This document shows, piece by piece, positions 586-45,039 of a stretch of DNA of 45,814 nucleotides. The translations under genes and the position numbers were made by a program. Every line of letters begins with the position of its first letter. Positions within the stretch are counted from its first letter, which is position 1. Source of the DNA: Escherichia phage DTL; sequence record MG050172, one strand, 5' to 3'. The notes beneath the pieces were generated by a model. That model was not told the DNA's origin, did no database searches, and saw only the letters and a program-made list of their open reading frames with translations.

Positions 586-1722
586 ATGGCAACTGCAAAG
601 ATTACCAACGAAGAACTTCGCGAAGAGCTGAAAAATGGCATGACCAACAAGGCAATCTCAGAGAAGTACGGAATGAACATTCGCAACGTTGAATTGCGTC
701 GTAGTAAATTGGCAAAATCCGGCGAGCTTCATGGAAACCCTGGAATTAAGAAGCTAGTTCCTGACGGCTATTTGGTCAAGGGGACTTCAACAATGATTGA
801 CGCTGAAGGTAACGAAAAGATTATATGGGTAAAGACTTCAATAGACAATGAGCGCCTTGAAGTACTAATGGAGCAAGCTCGAGAGGCATTTTGTTCAGAG
901 TTGCCAAAAGCTATTCCATCTCAATCACCTAATGTTAACTTTGATGATAACACGCTTTCTATGTATCCAGTTTTTGATTTGCACATTGGGGCAATGGCTC
1001 ACAAACATGAGTGCGGCGAAAACTATGATACAGCAACAGCAGAGAAGGTTATGAATGGGTTCTTTGACTACGCTGTAGATAAGGCACCAAACTCTAAGAA
1101 TGCTGTATTGGTATTGGGTGGCGATTTCCTACATTACGATTCTCTGGAGGCTAAAACCCCGGCATCAGGTCACATATTAGATAGTGACAGTCGTTACGCC
1201 AAGATTGTTTATGTCGCAATCCGGTCAGTTCGTCGTGCGATTTCTAGAATGATGGAAAAGCATCAAGTTATTGATATTAAAGTAATAAGTGGGAATCACG
1301 ACGAGGCTGGGATGGTTTGGCTTCGCGCTGCTCTTGCTGCATTTTATGAAGACGAACCGCGAGTAAATGTTGATGTTAGCCCAGCTGCAATGATGATGAC
1401 AAGCTTTGGAACGACGCTTATTGGATACACGCATGGTCACCAAATGCGAAAAGCCGATACCCGACTAACTGTTATGGCAACTGATTTTCGTAAGTTATTT
1501 GGTCAAAGTGAGTATGTTTACACACATAGCGGACACTGGCATTCGCAGAAGATTACAGAAACAAACCTGGGAATTGATGAGGTTCACGGGCAGCTTGGAA
1601 GTCCTGACGCGTACTCCGCAAATGGCGGCTGGCGCTCTCAACGTCAAGCGGCAGTTATTGTCTACCATAAAGAATTCGGTGAAGTTGGTCGATTCATTTG
1701 TCGCCCTAAAATGTTTAGCTAA
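586..1722 (+). CDS. putative metallophosphoesterase with N-terminal HTH-like region
   Basis: 378-aa ORF; calcineurin-like motifs LGGDFLHYD and SGNHDE; RBS AAGGAA upstream; stop TAA abuts ATAGCAC element. Confidence 0.5.
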   Translation: MATAKITNEELREELKNGMTNKAISEKYGMNIRNVELRRSKLAKSGELHGNPGIKKLVPDGYLVKGTSTMIDAEGNEKIIWVKTSIDNERLEVLMEQAREAFCSELPKAIPSQSPNVNFDDNTLSMYPVFDLHIGAMAHKHECGENYDTATAEKVMNGFFDYAVDKAPNSKNAVLVLGGDFLHYDSLEAKTPASGHILDSDSRYAKIVYVAIRSVRRAISRMMEKHQVIDIKVISGNHDEAGMVWLRAALAAFYEDEPRVNVDVSPAAMMMTSFGTTLIGYTHGHQMRKADTRLTVMATDFRKLFGQSEYVYTHSGHWHSQKITETNLGIDEVHGQLGSPDAYSANGGWRSQRQAAVIVYHKEFGEVGRFICRPKMFS

Positions 1723-1793
1723 TAGCACCTTTTGTTAAAACAGTAGCCGCGAAAGCGGCTATTATTGTTTTATAGAAACGACAGGAGATTGAA

Positions 1794-2222
1794 ATGAATT
1801 GGCATGAACATTACGATTACAAAGATGGAAAGCTTTATAGGAAGTACCAAAACCACAATCACCCGGCAGGAAAGGAGTGTGGCTGGATTGATTTAAGGGG
1901 TTACGTTAGGACTAAGCTGTTTTCAAAGATGACTTTTGCCCATCTAGTAATATGGGAAATGCATAACGGAGAGGTTCCCGAGGGCATGGAGATCGACCAC
2001 ATTAATGGAGTTAAGCATGATAACAGGATTGAGAACCTAAGGTGCGTAGATAGGTGGGTAAACTGCAAGAATATGGCGAAGAGAAAAGACAATAAAAGCG
2101 GGCAAACTGGAGTTAGTTACGTTGAGTCAAGAAATGTTTGGGTAGTAAGTATACATGTAAACAAATTCACACATAGTCACACGTGCGATACGAAAGATGA
2201 GGCAATTTCAATTGCAAAATAA
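1794..2222 (+). CDS. HNH homing endonuclease
   Basis: Signature AHLVIWEMHNGEVPEGMEIDHINGVKHDNRIENLR; RBS GGAG upstream. Confidence 0.8.
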   Translation: MNWHEHYDYKDGKLYRKYQNHNHPAGKECGWIDLRGYVRTKLFSKMTFAHLVIWEMHNGEVPEGMEIDHINGVKHDNRIENLRCVDRWVNCKNMAKRKDNKSGQTGVSYVESRNVWVVSIHVNKFTHSHTCDTKDEAISIAK

Positions 2223-2348
2223 ATTTACGCAGAAAACCCAGAATTCACAGAGAGGCACGGTAAATAGCACTTTTTGCCTAACCCACGCCGTAGAAATACG
2301 GCATAATCACCACATCGAAACGAGACAAACCAAGAGAGGAAGCACAAA

Positions 2349-5659: not shown

Positions 5660-5733
5660 TACTTCTCTCCGTATTGTTTCTGAGCGGCCATTATATCAAC
5701 GACCGCTTATAATTCATTATCAATTTTTGCTAT

Positions 5734-6087: not shown

Positions 6088-6150
6088 TTTGTTTGCCTTC
6101 GTGTGTTTCGTTTCGATGAGATGAATATACAGGAAAAGCCCCGAATGGCT

Positions 6151-6402
6151 TTAGCAATTAGTGCTATTTATTGCATTGAGTCCAAGTGGTGTTATCACTA
6201 CATTATACCAAGTTCCAATCTCTGGCTTATTTACATTATATGCCATCTCTACATAGCCTAGCCGAAATAGTTTTGGTATACACCTGGATGACTTGCCAGA
6301 ATCTCGAATCCTGCCTCGACTAAAGTCATAACTTATTTGATGAATCTCTCCATTATGAATGCAGTGGAGGGTTTTTATTGCGGATTCAGAAATTTTAATC
6401 AT
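6151..6402 (-). CDS. hypothetical protein
   Basis: 83-aa ORF; its stop lies within a minus-strand copy of the ATAGCAC element. Confidence 0.4.
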   Translation of the reverse strand: MIKISESAIKTLHCIHNGEIHQISYDFSRGRIRDSGKSSRCIPKLFRLGYVEMAYNVNKPEIGTWYNVVITPLGLNAINSTNC

Positions 6403-6568: not shown

Positions 6569-7093
6569 TTATCTCCCGTGGTTTTTGTGGAATTTACCAT
6601 TCGCAAACTCAGCTCTAGCAGCAATTGCATCATCTATGTTGTCATAAAAACCAAGATGATATCTTTTCTTTTCGTATCTGGCGTAGGCGGCGAACTTTCC
6701 TGTTCGGCTCATGTAGCAAACACCAGTAACTCCGGTCTTGTTGTCAGACCTTCTTTTGGCGTTCCTTGTGTTTTCTGACCACGTTGCCAGCCTTAGGTTT
6801 GATATGTGGTTGTTTGATTTATCACCATCTATGTGGTCAACAACCATTTCATCTGGAACCTTTTGACCTGTCTCTATCTCGTAGACTATCTTATGAACAC
6901 AGTATAGCTTTGCGTGTATGCCAACTTGATGATACCCACTATTTGAAAGCTTGCATCCGCATGGCTTATTTGCGTGTCTTTTATTCCACCTCTTTAAGTC
7001 CCAATCTATATTGTTAGTGTGAGTGTCGATCGTTCTCTCCTTGAAGTAAGGGACTCCATCAACAAGATAAATATATTTAGAGAAGTCCATCAC
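6569..7093 (-). CDS. HNH homing endonuclease
   Basis: Motif VVDHIDGDKSNNHISNLRLATWSEN plus AP2-like C-terminus. Confidence 0.8.
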   Translation of the reverse strand: MMDFSKYIYLVDGVPYFKERTIDTHTNNIDWDLKRWNKRHANKPCGCKLSNSGYHQVGIHAKLYCVHKIVYEIETGQKVPDEMVVDHIDGDKSNNHISNLRLATWSENTRNAKRRSDNKTGVTGVCYMSRTGKFAAYARYEKKRYHLGFYDNIDDAIAARAEFANGKFHKNHGR

Positions 7094-7516: not shown

Positions 7517-7739
7517 GTCTTTCTCCTCGCTGTTGATGGGTTAACTATATCCCCACTAACTCATAATGTCTTTAGCAAAAAGTGCCATTCGTTAGATTTA
7601 TGGATTGTTGCAGATATTGCAATGATTCTCATGATTATTGCGTATATAGCAATATTGCTTCAGATGCAATGATTTTTTTGATTGTTGCGAAAAGTGAAAT
7701 GAAGTGGTGAGTGAGTGAATGAAAGAATGATGGACTACC

Positions 7740-22472: not shown

Positions 22473-22475
22473 AGA

Positions 22476-22500
22476 ACAAACCCTCTTCGGAGGGTTTTTT
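22476..22500 (+). terminator. rho-independent terminator
   Basis: CCCTC-TTCG-GAGGG followed by TTTTTTATT. Confidence 0.65.
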
Positions 22501-22582
22501 ATTGCATAGCACTTTTTGCTAAAGCGCTCGTTCAACTTTGCTGTATAGTTACTTCATCGAAACGAAATGAAGGAATTAAGAA

Positions 22583-22831
22583 ATGAATAACGTTAAAAAC
22601 ATTATCAAGCTCGCTGCGGTTCTTGTTGCTTTTTATGCAGTAGTTCAGATTGTTAACCCAACTGGCGAGGCTGATGCCAATAGCAAGGCAAACAGATATA
22701 CTGTTGAATTTTCTAAGGCTGAGCTAGCATGTCAGGAACTTGTAGGTGGCAAAGTTGACCAAATCATGAAATACGGCAAAGAGGTTTGTAAGGACTCGGC
22801 TGCTAAGATTGCAAAAGAAAACACTAAGTAA
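22583..22831 (+). CDS. small secreted/membrane protein (moron-like insert in tail cluster)
   Basis: N-terminal hydrophobic segment; own promoter element and CATCGAAACGAAA leader upstream. Confidence 0.45.
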   Translation: MNNVKNIIKLAAVLVAFYAVVQIVNPTGEADANSKANRYTVEFSKAELACQELVGGKVDQIMKYGKEVCKDSAAKIAKENTK

Positions 22832-27866: not shown

Positions 27867-28364
27867 TTGGAGACAAAAATGAACTGGAATGAAATTTTCG
27901 AATACAGAGATGGCAAGATCTATTGGAAAGTTAGCCCTGGCAGGAGGGCTAAGGTTGGTTCGGAAGCTGGATCAAATCAAATAAAAGGGTATAGATTTGT
28001 GAAATTTCACGGAGTTTTATATATGACACACATGGTTATTTGGGAGATGCATAACTGTGAAATACCGCATGGAATGGAGGTTGACCATTTAAATCACATT
28101 AGGGACGATAACAGGATAGAGAATTTAAGAGTTGTTACAAAGTCAATTAATCAGAGGAATGCATCTAAAAGAATTGATAATAAAAGCGGTTTTACAGGCG
28201 TTTCTTGGTATCCCAAATATTCAAAGTGGAATGCTTACGCGACAGTAAATTCCAAGAGGTTTAATCTTGGTTACTTTGAATCAAAGCAAGATGCCTGTGT
28301 GGCTGTTAAAAAATTTAGGTCCATAAATTATTTTCATAAAAACCATGGAGTTGATTTATGTTAA
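27867..28364 (+). CDS. HNH homing endonuclease
   Basis: Motif HMVIWEMHNCEIPHGMEVDHLNHIRDDNRIENLR; inserted between L-like and K-like tail genes. Confidence 0.8.
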   Translation: METKMNWNEIFEYRDGKIYWKVSPGRRAKVGSEAGSNQIKGYRFVKFHGVLYMTHMVIWEMHNCEIPHGMEVDHLNHIRDDNRIENLRVVTKSINQRNASKRIDNKSGFTGVSWYPKYSKWNAYATVNSKRFNLGYFESKQDACVAVKKFRSINYFHKNHGVDLC

Positions 28365-34366: not shown

Positions 34367-34399
34367 TTTGTACTCCTTAGTTAGTATGTTTCGTTTCGA

Positions 34400-34860
34400 T
34401 GGGATAACTATACAACCGTCAGTGAGGAATGTCTTTAGCTATTCGTGCTATTGTATACACGTAACCGATGTAACTGCGTGTATACCAGTGCCATCCGCGA
34501 GAAATCGTATACGCCTAGTTACGCCTAGTTACGCATTGGTTACACTAAAATATCTATATATATCAACCTTTTACTATTATTATTATTATTATATATATTA
34601 CTGTGTATATCATGTAACTACCTCTATAGGGTGTTGCGGTTATAAATTTCTAATATGTACATTTATACAGTATCTATCAACCAGCACACCAACGCACCCT
34701 CCGCGAGAAGCGGTATACACGATATACACGCTGGTTACGCTGAGCTATGGCTGGCTTGATATGCCAAAAAACGTAACTAGTGCCAACGCCTACACGTAAT
34801 TACAAAGATTCACGCGTAAGTTTGAATCAACGATTGGAGAAACCAATTGGACCCAAGCCA
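34400..34860. promoter_or_regulatory. divergent control region B: iteron-like TAGTTACGC repeats, (TA)n and (ATT)n tracts
   Basis: CCTAGTTACG x2 at ~34513..34537, (ATT)n at ~34574..34592, GAGCTATGGCTGGCT block; homologous to 7740..8170. Confidence 0.5.
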
Positions 34861-34913
34861 TGAACTCTCATATAGTTAACCCATCGAAAGCGAACAACCA
34901 GAGAGATAAAGAA

Positions 34914-35109: not shown

Positions 35110-35583
35110 ATGGAATACAAACTCTACTTCAATTACGACAATGGAAAGTTGATATGGAAAGTCAAAAAGAAATCAGGAAATCCGGGCTCAGAGGCTGGTA
35201 GTGTGATGAGGGATGGTTACATCATGGTTGGTTTAAATAGAAAACTAATTCTTGCTCACAGAATAGTTTGGGAAATGCTTAAAGGCCCGATACCTGAAGG
35301 TATGGAGATTGATCATATTAATCATTGTAGGTCAGACAATAGGATAGAAAACTTAAGGATGGTGAGTAAGCCGATAAATCAAAGAAATAGATCGAGATCA
35401 AAAAATAACACAAGCGTATTCACGGGAGTTTGTTGGAGTAAGTCAGCTTCAAAGTTGGTCTCATCAATGAAAGTTAACGGGAAAAAAATTCATCTTGGAT
35501 CGTTCGATGAAATACAAGATGCAATAGCTGCAAGAAAGTCAGCAAACCAAAAGTATAAATTTCACAAAAATCATGGAGAATAA
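35110..35583 (+). CDS. HNH homing endonuclease
   Basis: Motif HRIVWEMLKGPIPEGMEIDHINHCRSDNRIENLR. Confidence 0.8.
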   Translation: MEYKLYFNYDNGKLIWKVKKKSGNPGSEAGSVMRDGYIMVGLNRKLILAHRIVWEMLKGPIPEGMEIDHINHCRSDNRIENLRMVSKPINQRNRSRSKNNTSVFTGVCWSKSASKLVSSMKVNGKKIHLGSFDEIQDAIAARKSANQKYKFHKNHGE

Positions 35584-36550
35584 AATGTTTAAGGTTTTTA
35601 CGCGAGAAGAGTTAAGCAACGAAGAGTATCACTCAGAGTCTGACCACATCTCCGGTAGCTCACTTGTCGAGATTATCCAGGGCTCGCCAGCTAAGTGGAA
35701 ATTCAAGCGGCGTAATAGCGACAGCAAGGCGCTAAAGTTTGGAACCCTAAGCCACACGATGATTCTGGAGCAGGATGTATTTGATAAAGAATACCTTCGC
35801 GAAACCGATCTTGATGCCATCGAAGGCTTAATTACAAGCCAGACCGGATTATCAGCAGCACTTAAAAAAGTTGGCGTAGCTGGCACGTCTGGGAAGGGGT
35901 ATAGCGAGCTCGTAGAGATGATGTATCGTTCAGGTGAGTATTGGGATGTTAAATGGCTAATTGAGCAGCAGGATAGTGCTCAGGCTATTGCGGAGGGCAA
36001 GGAGCTAGTTAGCGCAGCAGATTACGACAAGGTTGTCGCGATGCGCGAGGTTCTTTGTAATATTCCTGCGTATGATGCAATTGTGAACAGTGAGACTGCG
36101 CAGAAGGAGTTATCAATCTTCGGTGAGATTCTAGGTGTTGGCGTTAAGATTCGAATTGACCACGTAGATGTTATTGATGGGGTTGTATGCATTACCGACC
36201 TGAAGACGACAGCCAGCGCATCACCTCAGGAGTTTGGTAGACTTGCATTCAAGCATGGTTATCTTGCAAAAATGGCGCTACAGCACGATGTTTTTGTTAG
36301 GGCTTTTAATGAAAAAAGAAAAACAAAAGTAAGGCTACTTGCGATCGAGAAAGAGGAGCCTTACCTACCAATGCTTTACAGCATTACAGAAGAGCAACTG
36401 AAGGTTGGCCGCAGGATGTATTTAGAGGCGCTTGCCACTTACAAAAAGTGCAAAGAGAATGATGAGTGGCCAGGTTATGCAATGGGCGCAACAGAGATTG
36501 ATTTAGATGTTCCTGAGTGGGATATGAGGAAGTATAGAGATGAAATATAG
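35573..36550 (+). CDS. PD-(D/E)XK family exonuclease (RecE/YqaJ-like recombination nuclease)
   Basis: Motif ITDLKT (D-x-K core); sits upstream of the ERF and SSB genes. Confidence 0.55.
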   Translation: MENKMFKVFTREELSNEEYHSESDHISGSSLVEIIQGSPAKWKFKRRNSDSKALKFGTLSHTMILEQDVFDKEYLRETDLDAIEGLITSQTGLSAALKKVGVAGTSGKGYSELVEMMYRSGEYWDVKWLIEQQDSAQAIAEGKELVSAADYDKVVAMREVLCNIPAYDAIVNSETAQKELSIFGEILGVGVKIRIDHVDVIDGVVCITDLKTTASASPQEFGRLAFKHGYLAKMALQHDVFVRAFNEKRKTKVRLLAIEKEEPYLPMLYSITEEQLKVGRRMYLEALATYKKCKENDEWPGYAMGATEIDLDVPEWDMRKYRDEI

Positions 36551-36619
36551 CACTAATTGCTAAAGACAAAATTAACGAGTGGGGTATGATTGCCACATCA
36601 ACAACGAACGAGGTTAAAG

Positions 36620-40043: not shown

Positions 40044-40967
40044 TTAGCTATTCAATAAATCACTCGCCTTATATATCTTCTTCCTGATGCCGCTCTTGAA
40101 TGAGTATTCATCATTTGGTATTACCACCTCAACGTTCCTGTCATCCGCAACGCAAAGTAATTCCATATCAAGATTGCACGCCACTCTCAACTTGTAGTTT
40201 TTGAGCGCATAAGCAACCATCTCCATATTGTAGCTGGAGTGGCAAACAAGCGCGCAGCGGTTCCCAGTAGCAAGATGAACGCGAACACCATCAATCCAAT
40301 TATCGACAAGATAAGCGTACTCATCACTTTTAAAGGTACCAATAACAGCAACTGACTGACGGGTATAATCTTTTGCAGCATAACTAACAACTCCCTCTTC
40401 ATTTATAAACATTACATTGCACATCTCATCTGACAACCCATCACTATAAGCCATAAAGCACGGTATTGCGTGTATTAGTTCTCCTGATTTTGTCCTGCCA
40501 ACATCAAAACCAAACTCGCTATAGATTCCCTCGTATATACTGAGCGGAGTTGATTCTACTCTTTCCGTCCTTTCCATTATCTCTAAGCACCTTTTGTGGT
40601 CAATCTGAGCGCCCATTTTGTATAGTTTGGTTCTTGATGCTTGCTTGTTTGCTTTAACTATAACCTCAATTGGTGTTAAGTTCAGCCAGTCACCAAGCAA
40701 ATTTACTGAATCGGCGAAGGACGATCCAGTGCACTTCATGACCCATCCTATACCGGAGTCACTTCCGCATTTCGAACAAACTGCCGCGCCATTTCCTTTT
40801 TCACTGCCTATTTCGTCGGTAAATCTGAATCTGTCAGTGCCAAAGCAGTATGGGCATGGTCCGTGCTTCTTACTTAGGTGTCTATCATTCCAACCAAGTT
40901 CCTTTGCATAAAATGATTTCCACAATCCGGCCATCTTAGGTATAACTTCATTCTTATCGTAATTCAT
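40044..40967 (-). CDS. DNA primase (zinc-ribbon plus TOPRIM-like)
   Basis: Zn-binding CPYCFG...CSKCG at N-terminus; acidic TOPRIM-like C-terminal half. Confidence 0.65.
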   Translation of the reverse strand: MNYDKNEVIPKMAGLWKSFYAKELGWNDRHLSKKHGPCPYCFGTDRFRFTDEIGSEKGNGAAVCSKCGSDSGIGWVMKCTGSSFADSVNLLGDWLNLTPIEVIVKANKQASRTKLYKMGAQIDHKRCLEIMERTERVESTPLSIYEGIYSEFGFDVGRTKSGELIHAIPCFMAYSDGLSDEMCNVMFINEEGVVSYAAKDYTRQSVAVIGTFKSDEYAYLVDNWIDGVRVHLATGNRCALVCHSSYNMEMVAYALKNYKLRVACNLDMELLCVADDRNVEVVIPNDEYSFKSGIRKKIYKASDLLNS

Positions 40968-41443
40968 TTGCTTAACCCGTGATTTTCGTGAAAGTTGTAT
41001 TTTCTCTCTGCTTCAATTCTTACTTTATACGCCTGCTCTGGAGTATCGAAGTTCCCAAGGTGTAGCTGCTTGCCGTCAACCTTGATGTGAGCCTTAAATT
41101 TTCCGTGATTTAGCTTTGCCACTCCACAATAACCAGTTGTTGATAAAACGCTAATCTTGCAATTTCTTGAGTTACCTTGATTTGTTGTTACTCTTAGGTT
41201 TTCTATTCTGTTATCTAATTTGTTATGGTTTATATGATCAATGTAGTCGCCATTTTGAAGTTCTCCATTAAACATCTCCCACACAACTCTATGTACATAA
41301 GTCCTAAAGCCATTAACAGACACTTTGTAATAGCCAGATGTAGATAGTGAGTTGCACTCATCGCCAACCTTAACACGTCTTGCAGTGCTAATCTTCCAAT
41401 GCAATTTGCCATCTACATAGTAAAAATAATCATGCCAGTTCAT
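40964..41443 (-). CDS. HNH homing endonuclease
   Basis: Motif HRVVWEMFNGELQNGDYIDHINHNKLDNRIENLR. Confidence 0.8.
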   Translation of the reverse strand: MNWHDYFYYVDGKLHWKISTARRVKVGDECNSLSTSGYYKVSVNGFRTYVHRVVWEMFNGELQNGDYIDHINHNKLDNRIENLRVTTNQGNSRNCKISVLSTTGYCGVAKLNHGKFKAHIKVDGKQLHLGNFDTPEQAYKVRIEAERKYNFHENHGLSK

Positions 41444-41495
41444 TTTCTTCTCTCCAATAAAAAAAGGATGTACCGATTATGGCACATCCAATTAT

Positions 41496-41969
41496 TTACT
41501 CTTTAGCTTTTCGTGCGGCTTCGTTAGCTGCCTTAATCTTTCGCCATGATCGACACTCTGGCTTGGTGGCCAATTCAGCCTCGGTAACCACGCGAAGCAT
41601 GTGACGCTTCTTGCATCTAAGTGTCAGCGGCTTGCCGTTACCGTCGAATTGCAGGTCTGGGCGGCAGAATGTGGCTCGAAAGCCTTCTCCATTTCGCTTA
41701 TAGTAGTTGTGCGACAGCTGGGCACCGCGTGCAGAAATCATTCCACGCTTAAACCACTCCTCTACAGCCTGTGGAGTTACCTTTAACTGCTTTGCGATAT
41801 TCGCCTTTGTGCCGAAGAAATCAAGAACTATCTCGAGTCTCGCTCGTAGTCCGGATCTTACTTCATCTTTTAAAACGTAGTAACCTGAAGGTCGCTTCCG
41901 TTTCTTCTTGTCTTCAGTGCGGACAGTTCCGTTATTCCCGTTAATGGTTCGCTTGTCAACTGCATTCAT
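41496..41969 (-). CDS. putative HTH DNA-binding protein / transcriptional regulator
   Basis: Basic N-terminus and HTH-like ANIAKQLKVTPQAVEEWFKRG. Confidence 0.4.
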   Translation of the reverse strand: MNAVDKRTINGNNGTVRTEDKKKRKRPSGYYVLKDEVRSGLRARLEIVLDFFGTKANIAKQLKVTPQAVEEWFKRGMISARGAQLSHNYYKRNGEGFRATFCRPDLQFDGNGKPLTLRCKKRHMLRVVTEAELATKPECRSWRKIKAANEAARKAKE

Positions 41970-42070
41970 TTAATCACCTCAATAGCATTTTTTGTTAAAA
42001 GTCATTCTGATTTGATGGTAGTATTGTACTCAATTAAACGCTACAAGACAATTTTTATAGGAATTTAGAT

Positions 42071-44066: not shown

Positions 44067-44540
44067 ATGAATTGGAATGACATTTTCGAGTATAGTGATG
44101 GGCAGCTATTCTGGAATGAGAAGGGAAAAAGCCGCAAGATGGGAGTGGCGGTTGGTGCCATTCGTGACAATGGTTATATCCAGGTAGGGTACAATCGCAA
44201 GCTGTACCTTGCTCATCGCATCGTGTGGGAAAAGCATAATGGGCCGATACCTGAGGGCATGATGGTAGATCACATAAACCATATTAGAGATGATAATAGG
44301 ATAGAAAACCTTAGATTGGTAAATTGCAAGGACAATACAAGAAACACCAGCATAAGGTCTGACAACAATACTGGTCACCACGGTGTTTGCTGGTGTAATC
44401 GCAGGCTTAAGTGGTACGCAAGGATAAATATTGACGGTAAAAATAAGTTTTTAGGTTACTTCATAACAAAAGCTATGGCCATAGAGGCAAGAAAGCAAGC
44501 CGAGAAGTTATATGGATTCCACGAAAACCATGGAGTTTAG
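44067..44540 (+). CDS. HNH homing endonuclease
   Basis: Motif HRIVWEKHNGPIPEGMMVDHINHIRDDNRIENLR. Confidence 0.8.
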   Translation: MNWNDIFEYSDGQLFWNEKGKSRKMGVAVGAIRDNGYIQVGYNRKLYLAHRIVWEKHNGPIPEGMMVDHINHIRDDNRIENLRLVNCKDNTRNTSIRSDNNTGHHGVCWCNRRLKWYARINIDGKNKFLGYFITKAMAIEARKQAEKLYGFHENHGV

Positions 44541-44961
44541 AGTGAAAATTACAGACAAGGTTGATTATATTGAGTTTTACCCAGGTCCAGTTAAGTCTTG
44601 CCCTAAAGAGGATGACGAACAAATCTTTTGCTCTGATTGGGTTAAGTATAACTATCCAGAGATGGTATTTTTCCACTGCGTGAATGAGGGTAAGAAAACC
44701 ATTGGACAAGCAAGAAAGGACCAGGCAAAAGGTTTGCTTAAGGGTGTCTCGGACTGCTTATTCCTGATACCTGAATCACTTAGAGGAAAGCACCCTTTCG
44801 GGGCAATAGAGCTAAAGAGAGCAGGAAAAACTCAGGCCAGTCCAGTCAGTGACGAGCAGAGGTCCTTCCTGAAAAGCGTAAGAGAATCAGGCGGTTTCGC
44901 GGCCGTAGCTTACGGACGTGAAGGATTTCTAGCGGCATTTAGAGAGATGATTTCAAAATAG
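44530..44961 (+). CDS. VRR-NUC domain nuclease
   Basis: Pattern DCLFLIPE...IELKRAGKTQASPVSDEQ; start ambiguous (44512 or 44530). Confidence 0.5.
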   Translation: MEFRVKITDKVDYIEFYPGPVKSCPKEDDEQIFCSDWVKYNYPEMVFFHCVNEGKKTIGQARKDQAKGLLKGVSDCLFLIPESLRGKHPFGAIELKRAGKTQASPVSDEQRSFLKSVRESGGFAAVAYGREGFLAAFREMISK

Positions 44962-45039
44962 CACGAATTGCTAAAGACGTTTCGGTGAGTTGGTGTATTA
45001 TCTATTCATCGAAACGAAACGCACAAAGAGAGAAATAAA

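What the first reader, a model, noticed from the sequence alone, without database searches (positions are those of the whole stretch)
22557..22582. Conserved leader motif CATCGAAACGAAAC five nucleotides downstream of the -10 hexamer
CATCGAAACGA(A/G)AC occurs upstream of starts at 2349 (about 2321), 22583 (about 22557) and 45040 (about 45012), and on the minus strand upstream of 6087 (about 6130..6117) and 34366 (about 34403..34390). Each begins about 5 nt after the putative -10, so it would span the transcription start and first ~13 nt of the transcript. Degenerate versions (CACACCAAACGAGAG, ATCAACACAACGAGAG, CATCAACAACGAACGAGG, CATCGAAAGCGAAC) sit at the same place in other copies. This could be an initiator region for a modified RNA polymerase, a binding or processing site in the 5' UTR, or a translational enhancer.
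Basis: seen in the sequence. Interest (0 to 1): 0.7.

Follow-up and report, generated by a model that had tools for sequence, protein, structure and literature searches.

The report
Conserved transcript-start motif of phage promoters
A 14-base sequence at the predicted transcription start of this T1-like phage's promoters occurs at the same position in promoters of several unrelated phages of enteric bacteria, so it looks like a portable "start module" for host-polymerase transcription, though what it does is still untested.

Summary
CATCGAAACGARAC occurs exactly four times (0 expected), and a fifth copy at 22555-22568 ends in T. Each copy starts exactly 5 nt after a TATAGT-like -10, so the A of CAT falls at the canonical +1.

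The window is a Drexlerviridae (T1-like) genome. The motif is the 3' module of about 16 composite promoters: ATAGCAC-N5-GCTAAAG box, 19 nt, -10, 6 nt, then A(+1)UCGAAACGAAAC. Only the box has been published, as an unexplained 21-nt repeat in phage TLS.

ATCGAAACGAAA is the majority consensus of +1..+12 over 53 promoters of three T1-like subfamilies. At orthologous promoters it is the best-conserved element.

It is not T1-specific. The same 14-mer sits 5 nt after the -10 in T4-like phages, phi80/HK225/HK639 pL promoters, ECML-117 and an Erwinia phage tRNA promoter. T7 A1 and A3 start similarly.

Best reading: a portable start-site and initial-transcribed module for host sigma70 polymerase. It is T-poor and purine-rich, which fits efficient promoter escape, and it gives an unstructured, U-poor 5' end. 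16S pairing, a modified phage polymerase and a purely translational role are not supported. The mechanism is inferred, not shown.

The parts
22506..22524 (+). Upstream box ATAGCACTTTTTGCTAAAG (contains the palindrome TAGCA-N5-TGCTA), at -50..-32 of the promoter the finding points to
   Evidence: matches the published TLS 21-nt repeat aaATAGCACnnnTTGnTAAAA (PMC11447400)
22544..22549 (+). -10 hexamer TATAGT, 19 nt after the box
22555..22568 (+). Leader motif copy CATCGAAACGAAAT (-1..+13); predicted start is the A at 22556; ATG at 22583
   Evidence: orthologue alignment A1
22474..22499 (+). Terminator-like hairpin plus T-run (AAACCCTCTTCGGAGGGTTTTTT) just upstream of the box; invariant in orthologues
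2264..2282 (+). Upstream box ATAGCACTTTTTGCCTAAC
2302..2307 (+). -10 hexamer CATAAT
2313..2326 (+). Motif copy CATCGAAACGAGAC; predicted start 2314; ATG 2349
6149..6167 (-). Upstream box ATAGCACTAATTGCTAAAG
6124..6129 (-). -10 hexamer TATATT
6105..6118 (-). Motif copy CATCGAAACGAAAC; predicted start 6117; ATG 6087
34433..34451 (-). Upstream box ATAGCACGAATAGCTAAAG
34407..34412 (-). -10 hexamer TATAGT (20-nt spacer)
34388..34401 (-). Motif copy CATCGAAACGAAAC; predicted start 34400; GTG 34366
   Evidence: orthologue alignment A3
44958..44976 (+). Upstream box ATAGCACGAATTGCTAAAG
44996..45001 (+). -10 hexamer TATTAT
45007..45020 (+). Motif copy CATCGAAACGAAAC; predicted start 45008; ATG 45040
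   Evidence: orthologue alignment A2
1771..1787 (+). Variant start region TATAGAAACGACAGGAG (box 1722-1740, -10 1760-1765); differs from the T7 A3 start ATGAAACGACAGTGAG by one inserted base and one substitution
7523..7538 (-). Variant CATCAACAGCGAGGAG (box 7570-7588, -10 7544-7549)
9956..9972 (+). Variant CATCAACCACACGAATG (box 9907-9925, -10 9945-9950)
10772..10786 (+). Variant CACACCAAACGAGAG (box 10723-10741, -10 10761-10766)
11222..11238 (+). Variant TATCAACACAACGAGAG (box 11173-11191, -10 11211-11216)
36596..36613 (+). Variant CATCAACAACGAACGAGG upstream of the Erf-like gene (box 36547-36565, -10 36585-36590)
34882..34895 (+). Variant CATCGAAAGCGAAC, 5 nt after TATAGT (34871-34876) but with no ATAGCAC box; ATG 34914
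5667..5682 (-). Box promoter with a divergent start region CAGAAACAATACGGAG (box 5715-5733, -10 5690-5695)
9241..9256 (+). Box promoter of the 'ggcctt-ATTGAAGCA' subtype (box 9192-9210, -10 9230-9235); AAGGCC/GGCCTT inverted repeat brackets the -10
42031..42046 (+). Box promoter upstream of the helicase gene, start region CAATTAAACGCTACAA (box 41982-42000, -10 42019-42024)

Best explanation
The 14-mer is the start-site and initial-transcribed module (-1 to +13) of the main promoter class of this T1-like phage.

The host sigma70 RNA polymerase would open the TATAGT-like -10, start at the A of CAT six bases downstream, and make AUCGAAACGAAAC as the first 13 nt of the transcript. This module is separable from what lies upstream. 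In T1-like phages that is an ATAGCAC box at -50..-32 with no -35 hexamer. Across 150 T1-like box promoters there is often a G at -14, although not in the five canonical copies of this window. In T4-like and lambdoid phages it is an ordinary -35. The module is equally separable from what lies downstream, which can be a ribosome-binding site, a tRNA or a nut/put leader.

I infer that the sequence is kept because it lets the polymerase pass through initial transcription and leave the promoter efficiently. It has no T from +3 to +13 and an A-run at +5..+7, where T and TG/TA steps are reported to slow escape most. It is also purine-rich. At the same time it gives the RNA an unstructured, U-poor 5' end.

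Shown here: the motif's existence, its fixed geometry relative to the -10, its conservation and its distribution across phage families. Inferred: the start nucleotide, the use of host polymerase, and the escape and 5'-end function.
For: Geometry. Sixteen box promoters in the window have box, 18-20 nt (mostly 19), then -10; fourteen of them have six bases between the -10 and a predicted purine start. In 123 unique IMG/VR contexts of the exact 14-mer, 102 have a -10-like hexamer upstream. In 101 of those 102 the gap is exactly 5 nt. At random positions in the same loci 13% pass the same -10 test.

Consensus. Over 53 box promoters from three complete genomes of three subfamilies (this window, T1, TLS), the majority base at +1..+12 spells ATCGAAACGAAA. 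T counts at +5, +6 and +7 are 5, 3 and 2 of 53, against 27% T genome-wide.

Selection. In gene-anchored orthologue sets the motif's pairwise identity is 0.97-0.99. The box scores 0.86-0.98, the -10 0.72-0.95, the spacer 0.48-0.72, the discriminator 0.57-0.79 and the rest of the leader 0.82-0.85.

Modularity and host polymerase. The same 14-mer follows plain TTGCAT/TTGACC -35 promoters without a box in Klebsiella phage Matisse and other 176-180 kb contigs. It also occurs in this position in phi80, HK225 and the annotated 'putative pL' of HK639, in Aeromonas phage 65, in ECML-117 and in Erwinia phage pEp_SNUABM_01, where its last base is nt 1 of a tRNA. T7 A1 (C|ATCGAGAGGG) and A3 (C|ATGAAACGACAG), each annotated at a single start position, begin with related sequences. 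G at -14 occurs in 122 of 150 T1-like box promoters. The TLS authors found no RNA polymerase or sigma gene in TLS.

Literature. Slowly escaping initial sequences carry 2-3 T's in the first ~7 nt, and TG/TA is worst at +5/+6. Purine content and 3'-end/NTP stacking correlate with productive, fast escape (PMC5961368).

5' end. Predicted unpaired probability of +1..+14 is 0.75-0.82 for the five canonical copies, against 0.52 +/- 0.17 for random 14-mers in the same transcripts.
Against: No 5' end has been mapped for any T1-like promoter that I could find.

The same study links fast escape with higher-than-average duplex stability. It also finds CG steps mildly inhibitory in two of its promoter contexts. 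The motif is only 38% G+C over +1..+13 and has CG at +3/+4 and +8/+9.

A compositional constraint (T-poor, purine-rich) does not by itself explain near-invariance of an exact 14-mer, which is conserved better than the -10. That pattern would fit a sequence-specific reader or an RNA-level role at least as well.

Across all 53 promoters the per-position information in the start region is only 0.05-0.8 bit. Many promoters therefore work with divergent start regions.
Confidence: 0.5

Rival explanations
1. The motif acts in the RNA as a 5'-terminal leader element. An unpaired, U-poor, A/C-rich 5' end with a pyrimidine at +2 would protect the transcript from 5'-end-dependent decay (RppH conversion, RNase E cleavage). 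It might also keep the downstream ribosome-binding site, tRNA or nut RNA accessible. The DNA sequence would then be conserved because of what the first 13 nt of RNA do, not because of how the polymerase starts.
For: Over the 16 window promoters U is about 10% at +3..+16 and 17% over the whole predicted leaders, against 27% in the genome. +1..+14 is predicted mostly unpaired. Strict anchoring to the 5' end fits a 5'-end-dependent process. The motif occurs ahead of three RNA types, mRNA, tRNA precursor and nut/put leader, all of which would benefit from a stable 5' end. RNase E's preference for U-containing single-stranded sites and RppH's dislike of a pyrimidine at position 2 come from my own knowledge and were not checked here.
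Against: No protein or RNase site was identified. No Rfam family matches the leaders. The tRNA leader is removed by RNase P anyway. A compositional requirement again does not explain exact sequence conservation. Related starts in T7 A1 and A3 are classically discussed as promoter features.
Confidence: 0.25
2. The motif is a specific recognition site for a trans-acting reader. This could be an operator-like DNA site overlapping the start, a core-promoter 'initiator' contacted by polymerase or an accessory factor, or a site for an RNA-binding protein. The tandem CGAAA-CGAAA-C units would be the recognition units.
For: Its conservation exceeds that of the -10 at orthologous promoters. It has an internal 5-nt direct repeat, CGAAACGAAAC. 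Divergent copies keep an (A)AACGA core. With the strict -10-anchored pattern, the enteric hits in the genome scan were prophage pL-type promoters (two further Enterobacterales contexts were not examined), and no Escherichia or Klebsiella record was hit.
Against: The carriers are unrelated phages with different regulators. Only HNH endonucleases are shared between this genome and the first 100 kb of Matisse. In a 30-row spread listing from best to weakest hit, every homologue of the T1-type HTH regulator was in a T1-sized record of about 44-52 kb (one 3-kb fragment aside); the listing is not exhaustive. Any reader would therefore have to be a host factor, and none with this specificity is known to me. 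A 5-bp repeat spacing is too tight for two helix-turn-helix domains.
Confidence: 0.1
3. The motif is mainly a hitch-hiking or recombination feature. It would be part of a promoter cassette that spreads between co-infecting phages and among sites within a genome, like the PeSL cassettes of T4-like phages or the boundary sequences of lambdoid phages. It would be kept by transfer and gene conversion rather than by its own function.
For: Whole cassettes (box, -10, motif) are about 80% identical between T1-like and T4-like phages. In lambdoid phages the motif sits exactly at the junction between variable immunity regions and at least three different downstream leaders. Many copies flank small ORFs of unknown function and HNH endonuclease genes. 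Several copies overlap terminator-like hairpins, as PeSLs do.
Against: Within one genome the copies have unrelated spacers, discriminators and downstream leaders, so conversion tracts would have to be about 14 bp long. At orthologous promoters the spacer has been replaced several times while the motif stays put. That pattern indicates purifying selection on the motif itself. Transfer explains how it spread, not why it is retained.
Confidence: 0.1
4. The motif is a translational enhancer that pairs with 16S rRNA, of the epsilon or downstream-box type.
For: It lies in the 5' UTR upstream of Shine-Dalgarno sequences in the window.
Against: The best duplex with E. coli 16S rRNA is -5.9 kcal/mol, against -9.8 +/- 1.7 for shuffled motifs; 99.8% of shuffles pair better. 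The longest perfect complement is 6 nt. The distance to the start codon varies. The motif also precedes a tRNA and nut leaders.
Confidence: 0.01

Closest known systems
Initial transcribed regions of the T7 early promoters A1 and A3 (E. coli polymerase promoters)
   Same: Strong early phage promoters read by host polymerase. The start is the A of C|AT. A1 begins ATCGAgaggg and A3 begins AT-GAAACGAcag. The window's 1771-1787 variant differs from the A3 start by one inserted base and one substitution.
   Different: The T7 promoters have canonical -35 hexamers and a 7-nt rather than 6-nt gap between the -10 and the start. Only 5-9 bases are shared, not the 14-mer. Nobody, to my knowledge, has described them as members of a wider start-region family.
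Downstream sequence region (+1..+20) shared by phage T5 early promoters such as PN25 (Gentz & Bujard 1985; Kammerer et al. 1986, cited in PMC5961368 and PMC11447400)
   Same: A conserved transcribed region directly after the start of strong early phage promoters. Changing it alters promoter strength more than 10-fold through late steps of initiation.
   Different: The sequence is different (the T5 region is A/T-rich, from my own knowledge), and it is confined to one phage. The present motif is T-poor and shared across phage families.
21-nt intergenic direct repeat aaATAGCACnnnTTGnTAAAA of T1-like phage TLS (PMC11447400, 2024)
   Same: This is the same upstream box, in the same orientation, and the distance to start codons is 73-85 nt in ten window copies (88 nt at 41982+) against about 76 nt in TLS. 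The authors also report it in T1, Rtp and Rogue1.
   Different: That paper describes only the box and leaves its role open (stoperator, enhancer site or UP element). It does not mention the -10 at a fixed 19 nt, the start-site motif, or the occurrence in T4-like phages.
PeSL (promoter-early stem-loop) cassettes of T4-like phages (PMC2839356, PMC4122927)
   Same: Repeated compact promoter-plus-hairpin units flanking small genes of unknown function. In Matisse-type phages the motif follows exactly such units, with the -35 inside a terminator-like stem-loop.
   Different: PeSLs were defined by a sigma70 consensus promoter plus stem-loop. No conserved transcribed motif was reported in the passages I read. 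The window's copies lack a -35 hexamer.
Conserved +1..+6 of single-subunit phage polymerase promoters (T7 class III GGGAGA)
   Same: The conserved sequence continues across the start into the transcript.
   Different: Those promoters are a contiguous 23-bp consensus read by a phage-encoded polymerase. Here the spacer is variable, the -10 is sigma70-type, and no RNA polymerase or sigma gene was found in TLS (the window's full gene set was not annotated here).

Membership tests
sigma70-type promoter, start-site and initial transcribed region | -10 hexamer (TAnnnT) ending 6-8 nt upstream of the start | tested here: met
   All five canonical copies and 16 of 16 box promoters have a -10-like hexamer. 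102 of 123 external contexts do, 101 of them with a 5-nt gap to the motif, against 13% at random positions.
sigma70-type promoter, start-site and initial transcribed region | -35 hexamer (TTGACA-like) 17+/-1 bp upstream of the -10 | tested here: not met
   In the window the -35 slot reads AAAGNN, and TTGCTA of the box lies 22 bp from the -10. The feature is met in other carriers of the motif: 39 of 123 contexts have TTGnnn at 16-18 bp.
sigma70-type promoter, start-site and initial transcribed region | Extended -10 (TG at -15/-14) that can substitute for a missing -35 | tested here: inconclusive
   G at -14 in 122 of 150 and TGn in 63 of 150 T1-like box promoters. In four of the five canonical window copies TG sits at -14/-13 instead; the fifth (2264+) has GG there.
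sigma70-type promoter, start-site and initial transcribed region | Mapped 5' end at the predicted +1 | not testable with these tools
   No start-site data for T1-like phages were found. The only support is by analogy with the T7 A1 and A3 starts, annotated at single positions.
TLS-type 21-nt direct repeat of T1-like phages | Consensus aaATAGCACnnnTTGnTAAAA | tested here: met
   24 matches at up to 3 mismatches against 4.8 expected; 5 perfect matches to ATAGCACNNNNNGCTAAAG.
TLS-type 21-nt direct repeat of T1-like phages | Intergenic, pointing in the direction of transcription, about 76 nt upstream of start codons | tested here: met
   Box start to start codon is 73-85 nt for 2264+, 6167-, 7588-, 10723+, 11173+, 22506+, 34451-, 36547+, 44958+ and 1722+, and 88 nt for 41982+.
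PeSL cassette (T4-like phages) | sigma70 consensus early promoter with both -35 and -10 | tested here: not met
   No -35 hexamer in the window copies. The feature is met in Matisse-type carriers.
PeSL cassette (T4-like phages) | Adjacent GC-rich stem-loop; repeated; flanking small genes of unknown function | tested here: met
   Terminator-like hairpins lie just upstream (22474-22499) or between box and -10 (1722+, 2264+, 6167-, 10723+). Downstream genes fall in PHROG families of unknown function.
PeSL cassette (T4-like phages) | Mediates excision or insertion (mini-circles) by recombination between copies | not testable with these tools
   Needs inverse PCR on infected cells (PMC2839356).
rRNA-pairing translational enhancer | Complementarity to 16S rRNA above chance | tested here: not met
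   -5.9 kcal/mol against -9.8 +/- 1.7 for shuffles.
rRNA-pairing translational enhancer | Fixed relation to the ribosome-binding site and always upstream of an ORF | tested here: not met
   Predicted leaders are 21-35 nt in the copies carrying the motif or a close variant. The motif abuts a tRNA and nutL/put leaders.
Phage-polymerase (T7-type) promoter | Contiguous ~23-bp consensus and a phage-encoded RNA polymerase | tested here: not met
   Spacer pairwise identity is only 0.48-0.72. The motif occurs with host-type promoters in other phages. No polymerase or sigma gene was found in TLS according to PMC11447400. The window's full proteome was not annotated here.

The most novel reading that the evidence does not exclude
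CATCGAAACGAAAC is a genuine sequence-specific element. It would be either a bacterial 'initiator'-type core-promoter element read by the gammaproteobacterial polymerase or an associated host factor, or a 5'-terminal RNA tag read by a host factor. At least six unrelated phage lineages (T1-like, several T4-like genera, phi80-type lambdoids, ECML-117-like, an Erwinia 147-kb myovirus, and in part T7) would have acquired and kept it to give their first transcripts privileged initiation or survival.
Probability: 0.2. Interest if true: 0.8.

Novelty: new variant of a known kind. Interest (0 to 1): 0.55.

Why it matters
T1-like phages are common laboratory and industrial contaminants and candidates for phage therapy, yet their transcription is essentially unmapped. 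The only published statement about these promoters is that a 21-nt repeat exists and is unexplained.

This work turns that repeat into a complete promoter model with a predicted start. It also shows that the start-site module is shared with T4-like, lambdoid and other phages.

If the module measurably improves initiation or RNA survival, it would be a ready-made portable part for strong expression in enteric bacteria. It would also be a rare natural example of selection acting on the initial transcribed sequence, and a marker for finding early promoters in new phage genomes.

If it has a dedicated reader, that would be a new layer of phage-host transcription control.

Tried and rejected
- **16S rRNA pairing.** Rejected: the motif pairs worse than 99.8% of its shuffles.
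- **Known RNA families.** Rfam finds only the tRNA-Arg in the window and a tRNA in L073. Nothing matches the leaders, and nothing matches the phi80-type leaders searched.
- **A phage-encoded reader shared by carriers.** tblastn of all window ORFs against 100 kb of Matisse finds only HNH endonucleases. The T1-type HTH regulator (41496-41969, PHROG 2856) has 823 homologous records. In a 30-row spread listing, all rows are T1-sized genomes of about 44-52 kb apart from one 3-kb fragment.
- **Alternative sigma factors, judged by eye from remembered consensus sequences.** For sigma54, the box resembles TGGCAC-N5-TTGC, but the GG-to-GC spacing is 2 bp short and the start would be misplaced. The FliA consensus, the sigma32 and sigmaE consensus sequences and the T4 MotA box (centred at -30) do not fit the spacing.
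- **TTGCTA of the box as the -35.** The spacer would be 22 bp, which is too long.
- **Concerted change of the motif within one phage.** Two promoters of contig 3300000290_000010 both read CATCGAAACT. The 99.5%-identical phage PCEc3 does not share this. Not pursued further.
- **Literature.** No paper in the library holds ATCGAAACGAAAC; the one hit for CATCGAAACGA was an unrelated primer. No start-site mapping for Drexlerviridae was found. The HK639 antiterminator paper (King et al. 2011) is not held. The Heyduk 2018 supplementary data, which would give the escape score of +2..+10 = TCGAAACGA, are not held.
Full report
**What the window is.** The 45,814-bp window is a complete or near-complete Drexlerviridae (T1-like) genome. 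Over 6 kb of tail genes it is 91% identical to Veterinaerplatzvirus T145P1 and 86-90% identical to ACG-M12, CEB_EC3a and other Braunvirinae. It is itself IMG/VR contig 2974667180_000001.

**Checking the observation.** CATCGAAACGARAC matches exactly at 2313-2326(+), 6105-6118(-), 34388-34401(-) and 45007-45020(+). No match occurred in any of 100 dinucleotide-preserving shuffles. The copy inside the reported coordinates is 22555-22568 and reads CATCGAAACGAAAT, one mismatch from the pattern. The four degenerate versions are also present in the same slot.

**Anatomy in the window.** The motif is the last module of a composite repeat:
- ATAGCAC-N5-GCTAAAG, which contains the palindrome TAGCA-N5-TGCTA;
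- a spacer of 19 nt, rarely 18 or 20;
- a -10 hexamer (TATAGT, TATAAT, TATTAT or CATAAT);
- six bases, then A.

There are 16 such units, all pointing at a downstream gene. If the hexamer occupies -12..-7, the box occupies -50..-32 and the A of CAT is +1. The transcript would then begin AUCGAAACGAAAC. The canonical -35 slot reads AAAGNN, so there is no -35 hexamer. TTGCTA inside the box is 22 bp from the -10.

The genes behind the five best copies encode 58-117-residue proteins of PHROG families with no known function. Several units overlap terminator-like hairpins.

**What is already published.** The 2024 re-annotation of phage TLS reports a 21-nt direct repeat, aaATAGCACnnnTTGnTAAAA, in 18 intergenic places about 76 nt upstream of start codons. 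It is also seen in T1, Rtp and Rogue1. The authors suggest stoperators, enhancer-binding sites or UP elements (PMC11447400). That is the upstream box. The passages I retrieved do not mention the -10 at a fixed distance or the start-site motif. It is the only paper in the library that combines ATAGCAC with Drexlerviridae. No paper holds ATCGAAACGAAAC.

**The motif is the family consensus and is under selection.**
- I collected every box promoter from three complete genomes of three subfamilies: this window, T1 (NC_005833) and TLS (NC_009540). That gave 53 promoters, 47 of them with a 19-nt spacer.
- Aligned on the -10, the majority base from +1 to +12 spells ATCGAAACGAAA, preceded by C at -3 and -1.
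- Per-position information is modest (0.05-0.8 bit). T1 itself has no exact copy, only variants such as CATCAAAACGAG and CATCGACAACGAACGAGG. The exact 14-mers are therefore the promoters closest to a fuzzy consensus.
- That consensus is A-rich and T-poor. T occurs in 5, 3 and 2 of 53 promoters at +5, +6 and +7, and returns towards the genomic 27% only from about +18.
- At orthologous promoters the picture is sharper. I fetched relatives through the downstream protein, so the sets were not selected for the motif. Motif pairwise identity is 0.97-0.99. The box scores 0.86-0.98, the -10 0.72-0.95, the spacer 0.48-0.72, the discriminator 0.57-0.79 and the rest of the leader 0.82-0.85.
- In two of these sets the spacer exists in several unrelated versions while the motif is unchanged.

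**The motif is not specific to T1-like phages.** A BLAST search with the 131-bp promoter region unexpectedly hit about 175-kb Klebsiella and Cronobacter T4-like phages. In Klebsiella phage Matisse (Slopekvirus) and Cronobacter phage Dev_CS701 (Pseudotevenvirus) the whole unit is present: box, 19-20 nt, TATAGT, 5 nt, CATCGAAACGAAAC.

Scanning 100 kb of Matisse showed more:
- The motif also follows ordinary promoters that have no box, for example TTGCAT-17-TATAGT-5-CATCGAAACGAAAC.
- Often the -35 lies inside a terminator-like stem-loop.
- In other copies the box sits one helical turn further upstream, with a TTGCA -35 in between.

- 102 have a -10-like hexamer, and in 101 of them the gap to the motif is exactly 5 nt. 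The same test is passed by 13% of random positions.
- 52 have the box, at -49/-50 or at -59/-60.
- 39 have a TTGnnn -35 at 16-18 bp.
- Most contexts without a clear promoter look like chance hits in G+C-rich sequence.

Besides T1-like and T4-like contigs, the carriers are:
- phi80, HK225 and HK639, where the promoter is annotated 'putative pL' and the motif is followed by nutL or a put-like RNA;
- Aeromonas phage 65, Escherichia phage ECML-117 and Erwinia phage pEp_SNUABM_01.

In the Erwinia phage the unit reads TTGACA-17-TAATCT-6 nt-motif. The motif's last C is nucleotide 1 of a tRNA.

I also scanned one genome per bacterial species with the pattern TAnnnT-N5-motif. It returned 77 places, against roughly 35 expected by my own estimate from database size. 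Among Enterobacterales the hits are mostly prophage pL-type promoters with at least three different downstream leaders; three sit on a T1-like 46.7-kb contig filed under Nitratidesulfovibrio. In several Vibrio chromosomes the hits follow sequences resembling Fur boxes. No Escherichia or Klebsiella record was hit.

Finally, the T7 promoters A1 and A3, each annotated at a single start position, begin C|ATCGAGAGGG and C|ATGAAACGACAG. The window's 1771-1787 variant differs from the A3 start by one inserted base and one substitution.

**What this excludes.**
- A phage-specific modified polymerase or regulator is unlikely. The carriers share no candidate protein: only HNH endonucleases are shared with Matisse. 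In a spread sample of the 823 hit records, the T1-type HTH regulator appeared only in T1-sized genomes.
- A primarily translational role is unlikely. The motif is tied to the -10, not to the ribosome-binding site. It never turned up inside operons away from a promoter. It also precedes RNAs that are not translated.
- Pairing with 16S rRNA is rejected.
- No Rfam family matches.

**How it most likely works.** All carriers are promoters read by host sigma70 polymerase. In the phages whose biology is known (T7 A1/A3, lambdoid pL) they are the early promoters. In T1-like phages the missing -35 is plausibly compensated by the box and by an extended -10: G at -14 in 122 of 150 promoters.

A large randomised-sequence study found that the first ~10 transcribed bases change escape kinetics 50- to 144-fold. 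Slow sequences carry 2-3 T's in the first ~7 bases. TG and TA at +5/+6 are the worst steps. Purine content and stacking at the RNA 3' end favour productive, fast escape (PMC5961368).

The motif has no T from +3 to +13, has AAA at +5..+7 and is 69% purine over +1..+13. The family-wide T minimum falls at +5..+7. The 5' end it creates is also predicted to be unpaired: 0.75-0.82 for the five canonical copies, against 0.52 +/- 0.17 for random 14-mers.

I therefore favour a portable start-site and initial-transcribed module that gives clean start selection (C-1/A+1), efficient escape and an open, U-poor 5' end.

**Weak points of that explanation.**
- No 5' end has been mapped.
- The same study associates fast escape with more stable duplexes and finds CG steps mildly unfavourable. 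The motif is 38% G+C over +1..+13 and has two CG steps.
- Composition alone does not explain why an exact 14-mer is held more tightly than the -10.

That last point keeps two rivals alive: an RNA-level function of the 5' end, and a sequence-specific reader. Spread between phages by recombination of promoter cassettes is likely how the motif came to be shared, but it does not explain its retention.

**Verdict.** The upstream box is known. The start-site motif, the full promoter model and the distribution across phage families appear to be new. The mechanism remains inferred.

Noticed in passing
window 9217-9241 (AAGGCC..TATAGT GGCCTT); also 5733-, 36547+ and 9907+; L207 (T1) 1450+, 2269+, 4344+; many IMG/VR loci: In 26% of 272 unique T1-like box promoters, the 6-nt discriminator right after the -10 is complementary (5-6 nt, mostly perfect) to a spacer segment 4-7 nt before the -10. 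The -10 therefore sits in the 'loop'. Only 4.4 +/- 1.2% show this when discriminators are swapped among promoters. At least 17 different arm pairs occur (GGGGTA/TACCCC, AAGGCC/GGCCTT, AGGGGA/TCCCCT and others), which is compensatory variation and suggests selection for pairing rather than for a fixed protein site. A single-register test on 125 promoters gives a covariation score of 0.246 against 0.175 +/- 0.014, with 0 of 500 shuffles as high. Function unknown.
   Followed up: partly
window 22506-22524 and the other boxes; L005 7031+, L004 10441-: The box contains the palindrome TAGCA-N5-TGCTA centred near -42 in T1-like promoters, and about one helical turn further upstream when a -35 is present in T4-like phages. 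Its half-sites match the Lrp consensus YAGHAWATTWTDCTR as I remember it. This is a lead from memory, not a test. The T1-type HTH regulator (41496-41969, minus strand) is another candidate binder, but it was not found in the T4-like carriers sampled.
   Followed up: partly
window 1722-1790, 2264-2310, 6124-6167(-), 10723-10770, 41455-41519(-): Terminator-like hairpins are packed between the box and the -10. At 41519- the -10 (CATAAT) lies in the loop of a 9-bp stem followed by T7. These are compact terminator-promoter overlaps reminiscent of the PeSL cassettes of T4-like phages.
   Followed up: no
window 1794-2222, 6569-7093(-), 27867-28364, 35110-35583, 40964-41443(-), 44067-44540: Six HNH homing-endonuclease-like ORFs. 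They are the only proteins shared with the first 100 kb of the T4-like phage Matisse. Three have their own box promoter (1722+, 27810+, 41519-). They could be vehicles for moving promoter cassettes between phage families.
   Followed up: no
window 34452-34870: About 420 bp of non-coding, partly very A+T-rich sequence between two divergent motif-bearing promoters. It holds a tandem TACGCCTAGT x2, (TAT)n runs, GTATACACG-type inverted repeats and 17-22-nt direct repeats. This could be a replication origin or another cis site.
   Followed up: partly
L149, L151, L152, L153, L194 (Vibrio chromosomes): Chromosomal Vibrio promoters read TATACT-ctctc-CATCGAAACGAAAC, with upstream sequences resembling Fur boxes (gataat-type repeats, judged by eye). 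Outside probable prophages they were the clearest chromosomal carriers I noticed in the genome scan (other Vibrio and Enterobacterales contexts were not examined); their genes were not examined.
   Followed up: no
L215 and L234 (both IMG/VR contig 3300000290_000010): Two different promoters of one metagenomic T1-like contig carry the same G-to-T change at +9 (CATCGAAACTAAA). The 99.5%-identical isolate PCEc3 has the normal G at both sites. This could be concerted change or an assembly quirk.
   Followed up: partly
L206 371-385 (T7 A3 start): The A3 transcript begins with AUG AAA CGA CAG UGA, which is a five-codon leaderless mini-ORF exactly at the 5' end. I do not know whether this has been noted before.
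   Followed up: no
window 12077-12154 and 12400-12463: There is a tRNA-Arg (anticodon TCT). There is also a separate ordinary promoter-like site with an extended -10 (TGGTATAAT) after a terminator, upstream of the small terminase gene. It has neither the box nor the motif.
   Followed up: no
public records MG065688.1, PP134917.1, NZ_VSMK01000220.1 (L195-L197): T1-like coliphage sequences are filed under unlikely hosts: 'Campylobacter phage A110b', 'Pseudomonas phage PsgS01F', and a 46.7-kb contig in a Nitratidesulfovibrio assembly. These are probably contaminants of cultures or assemblies.
   Followed up: no
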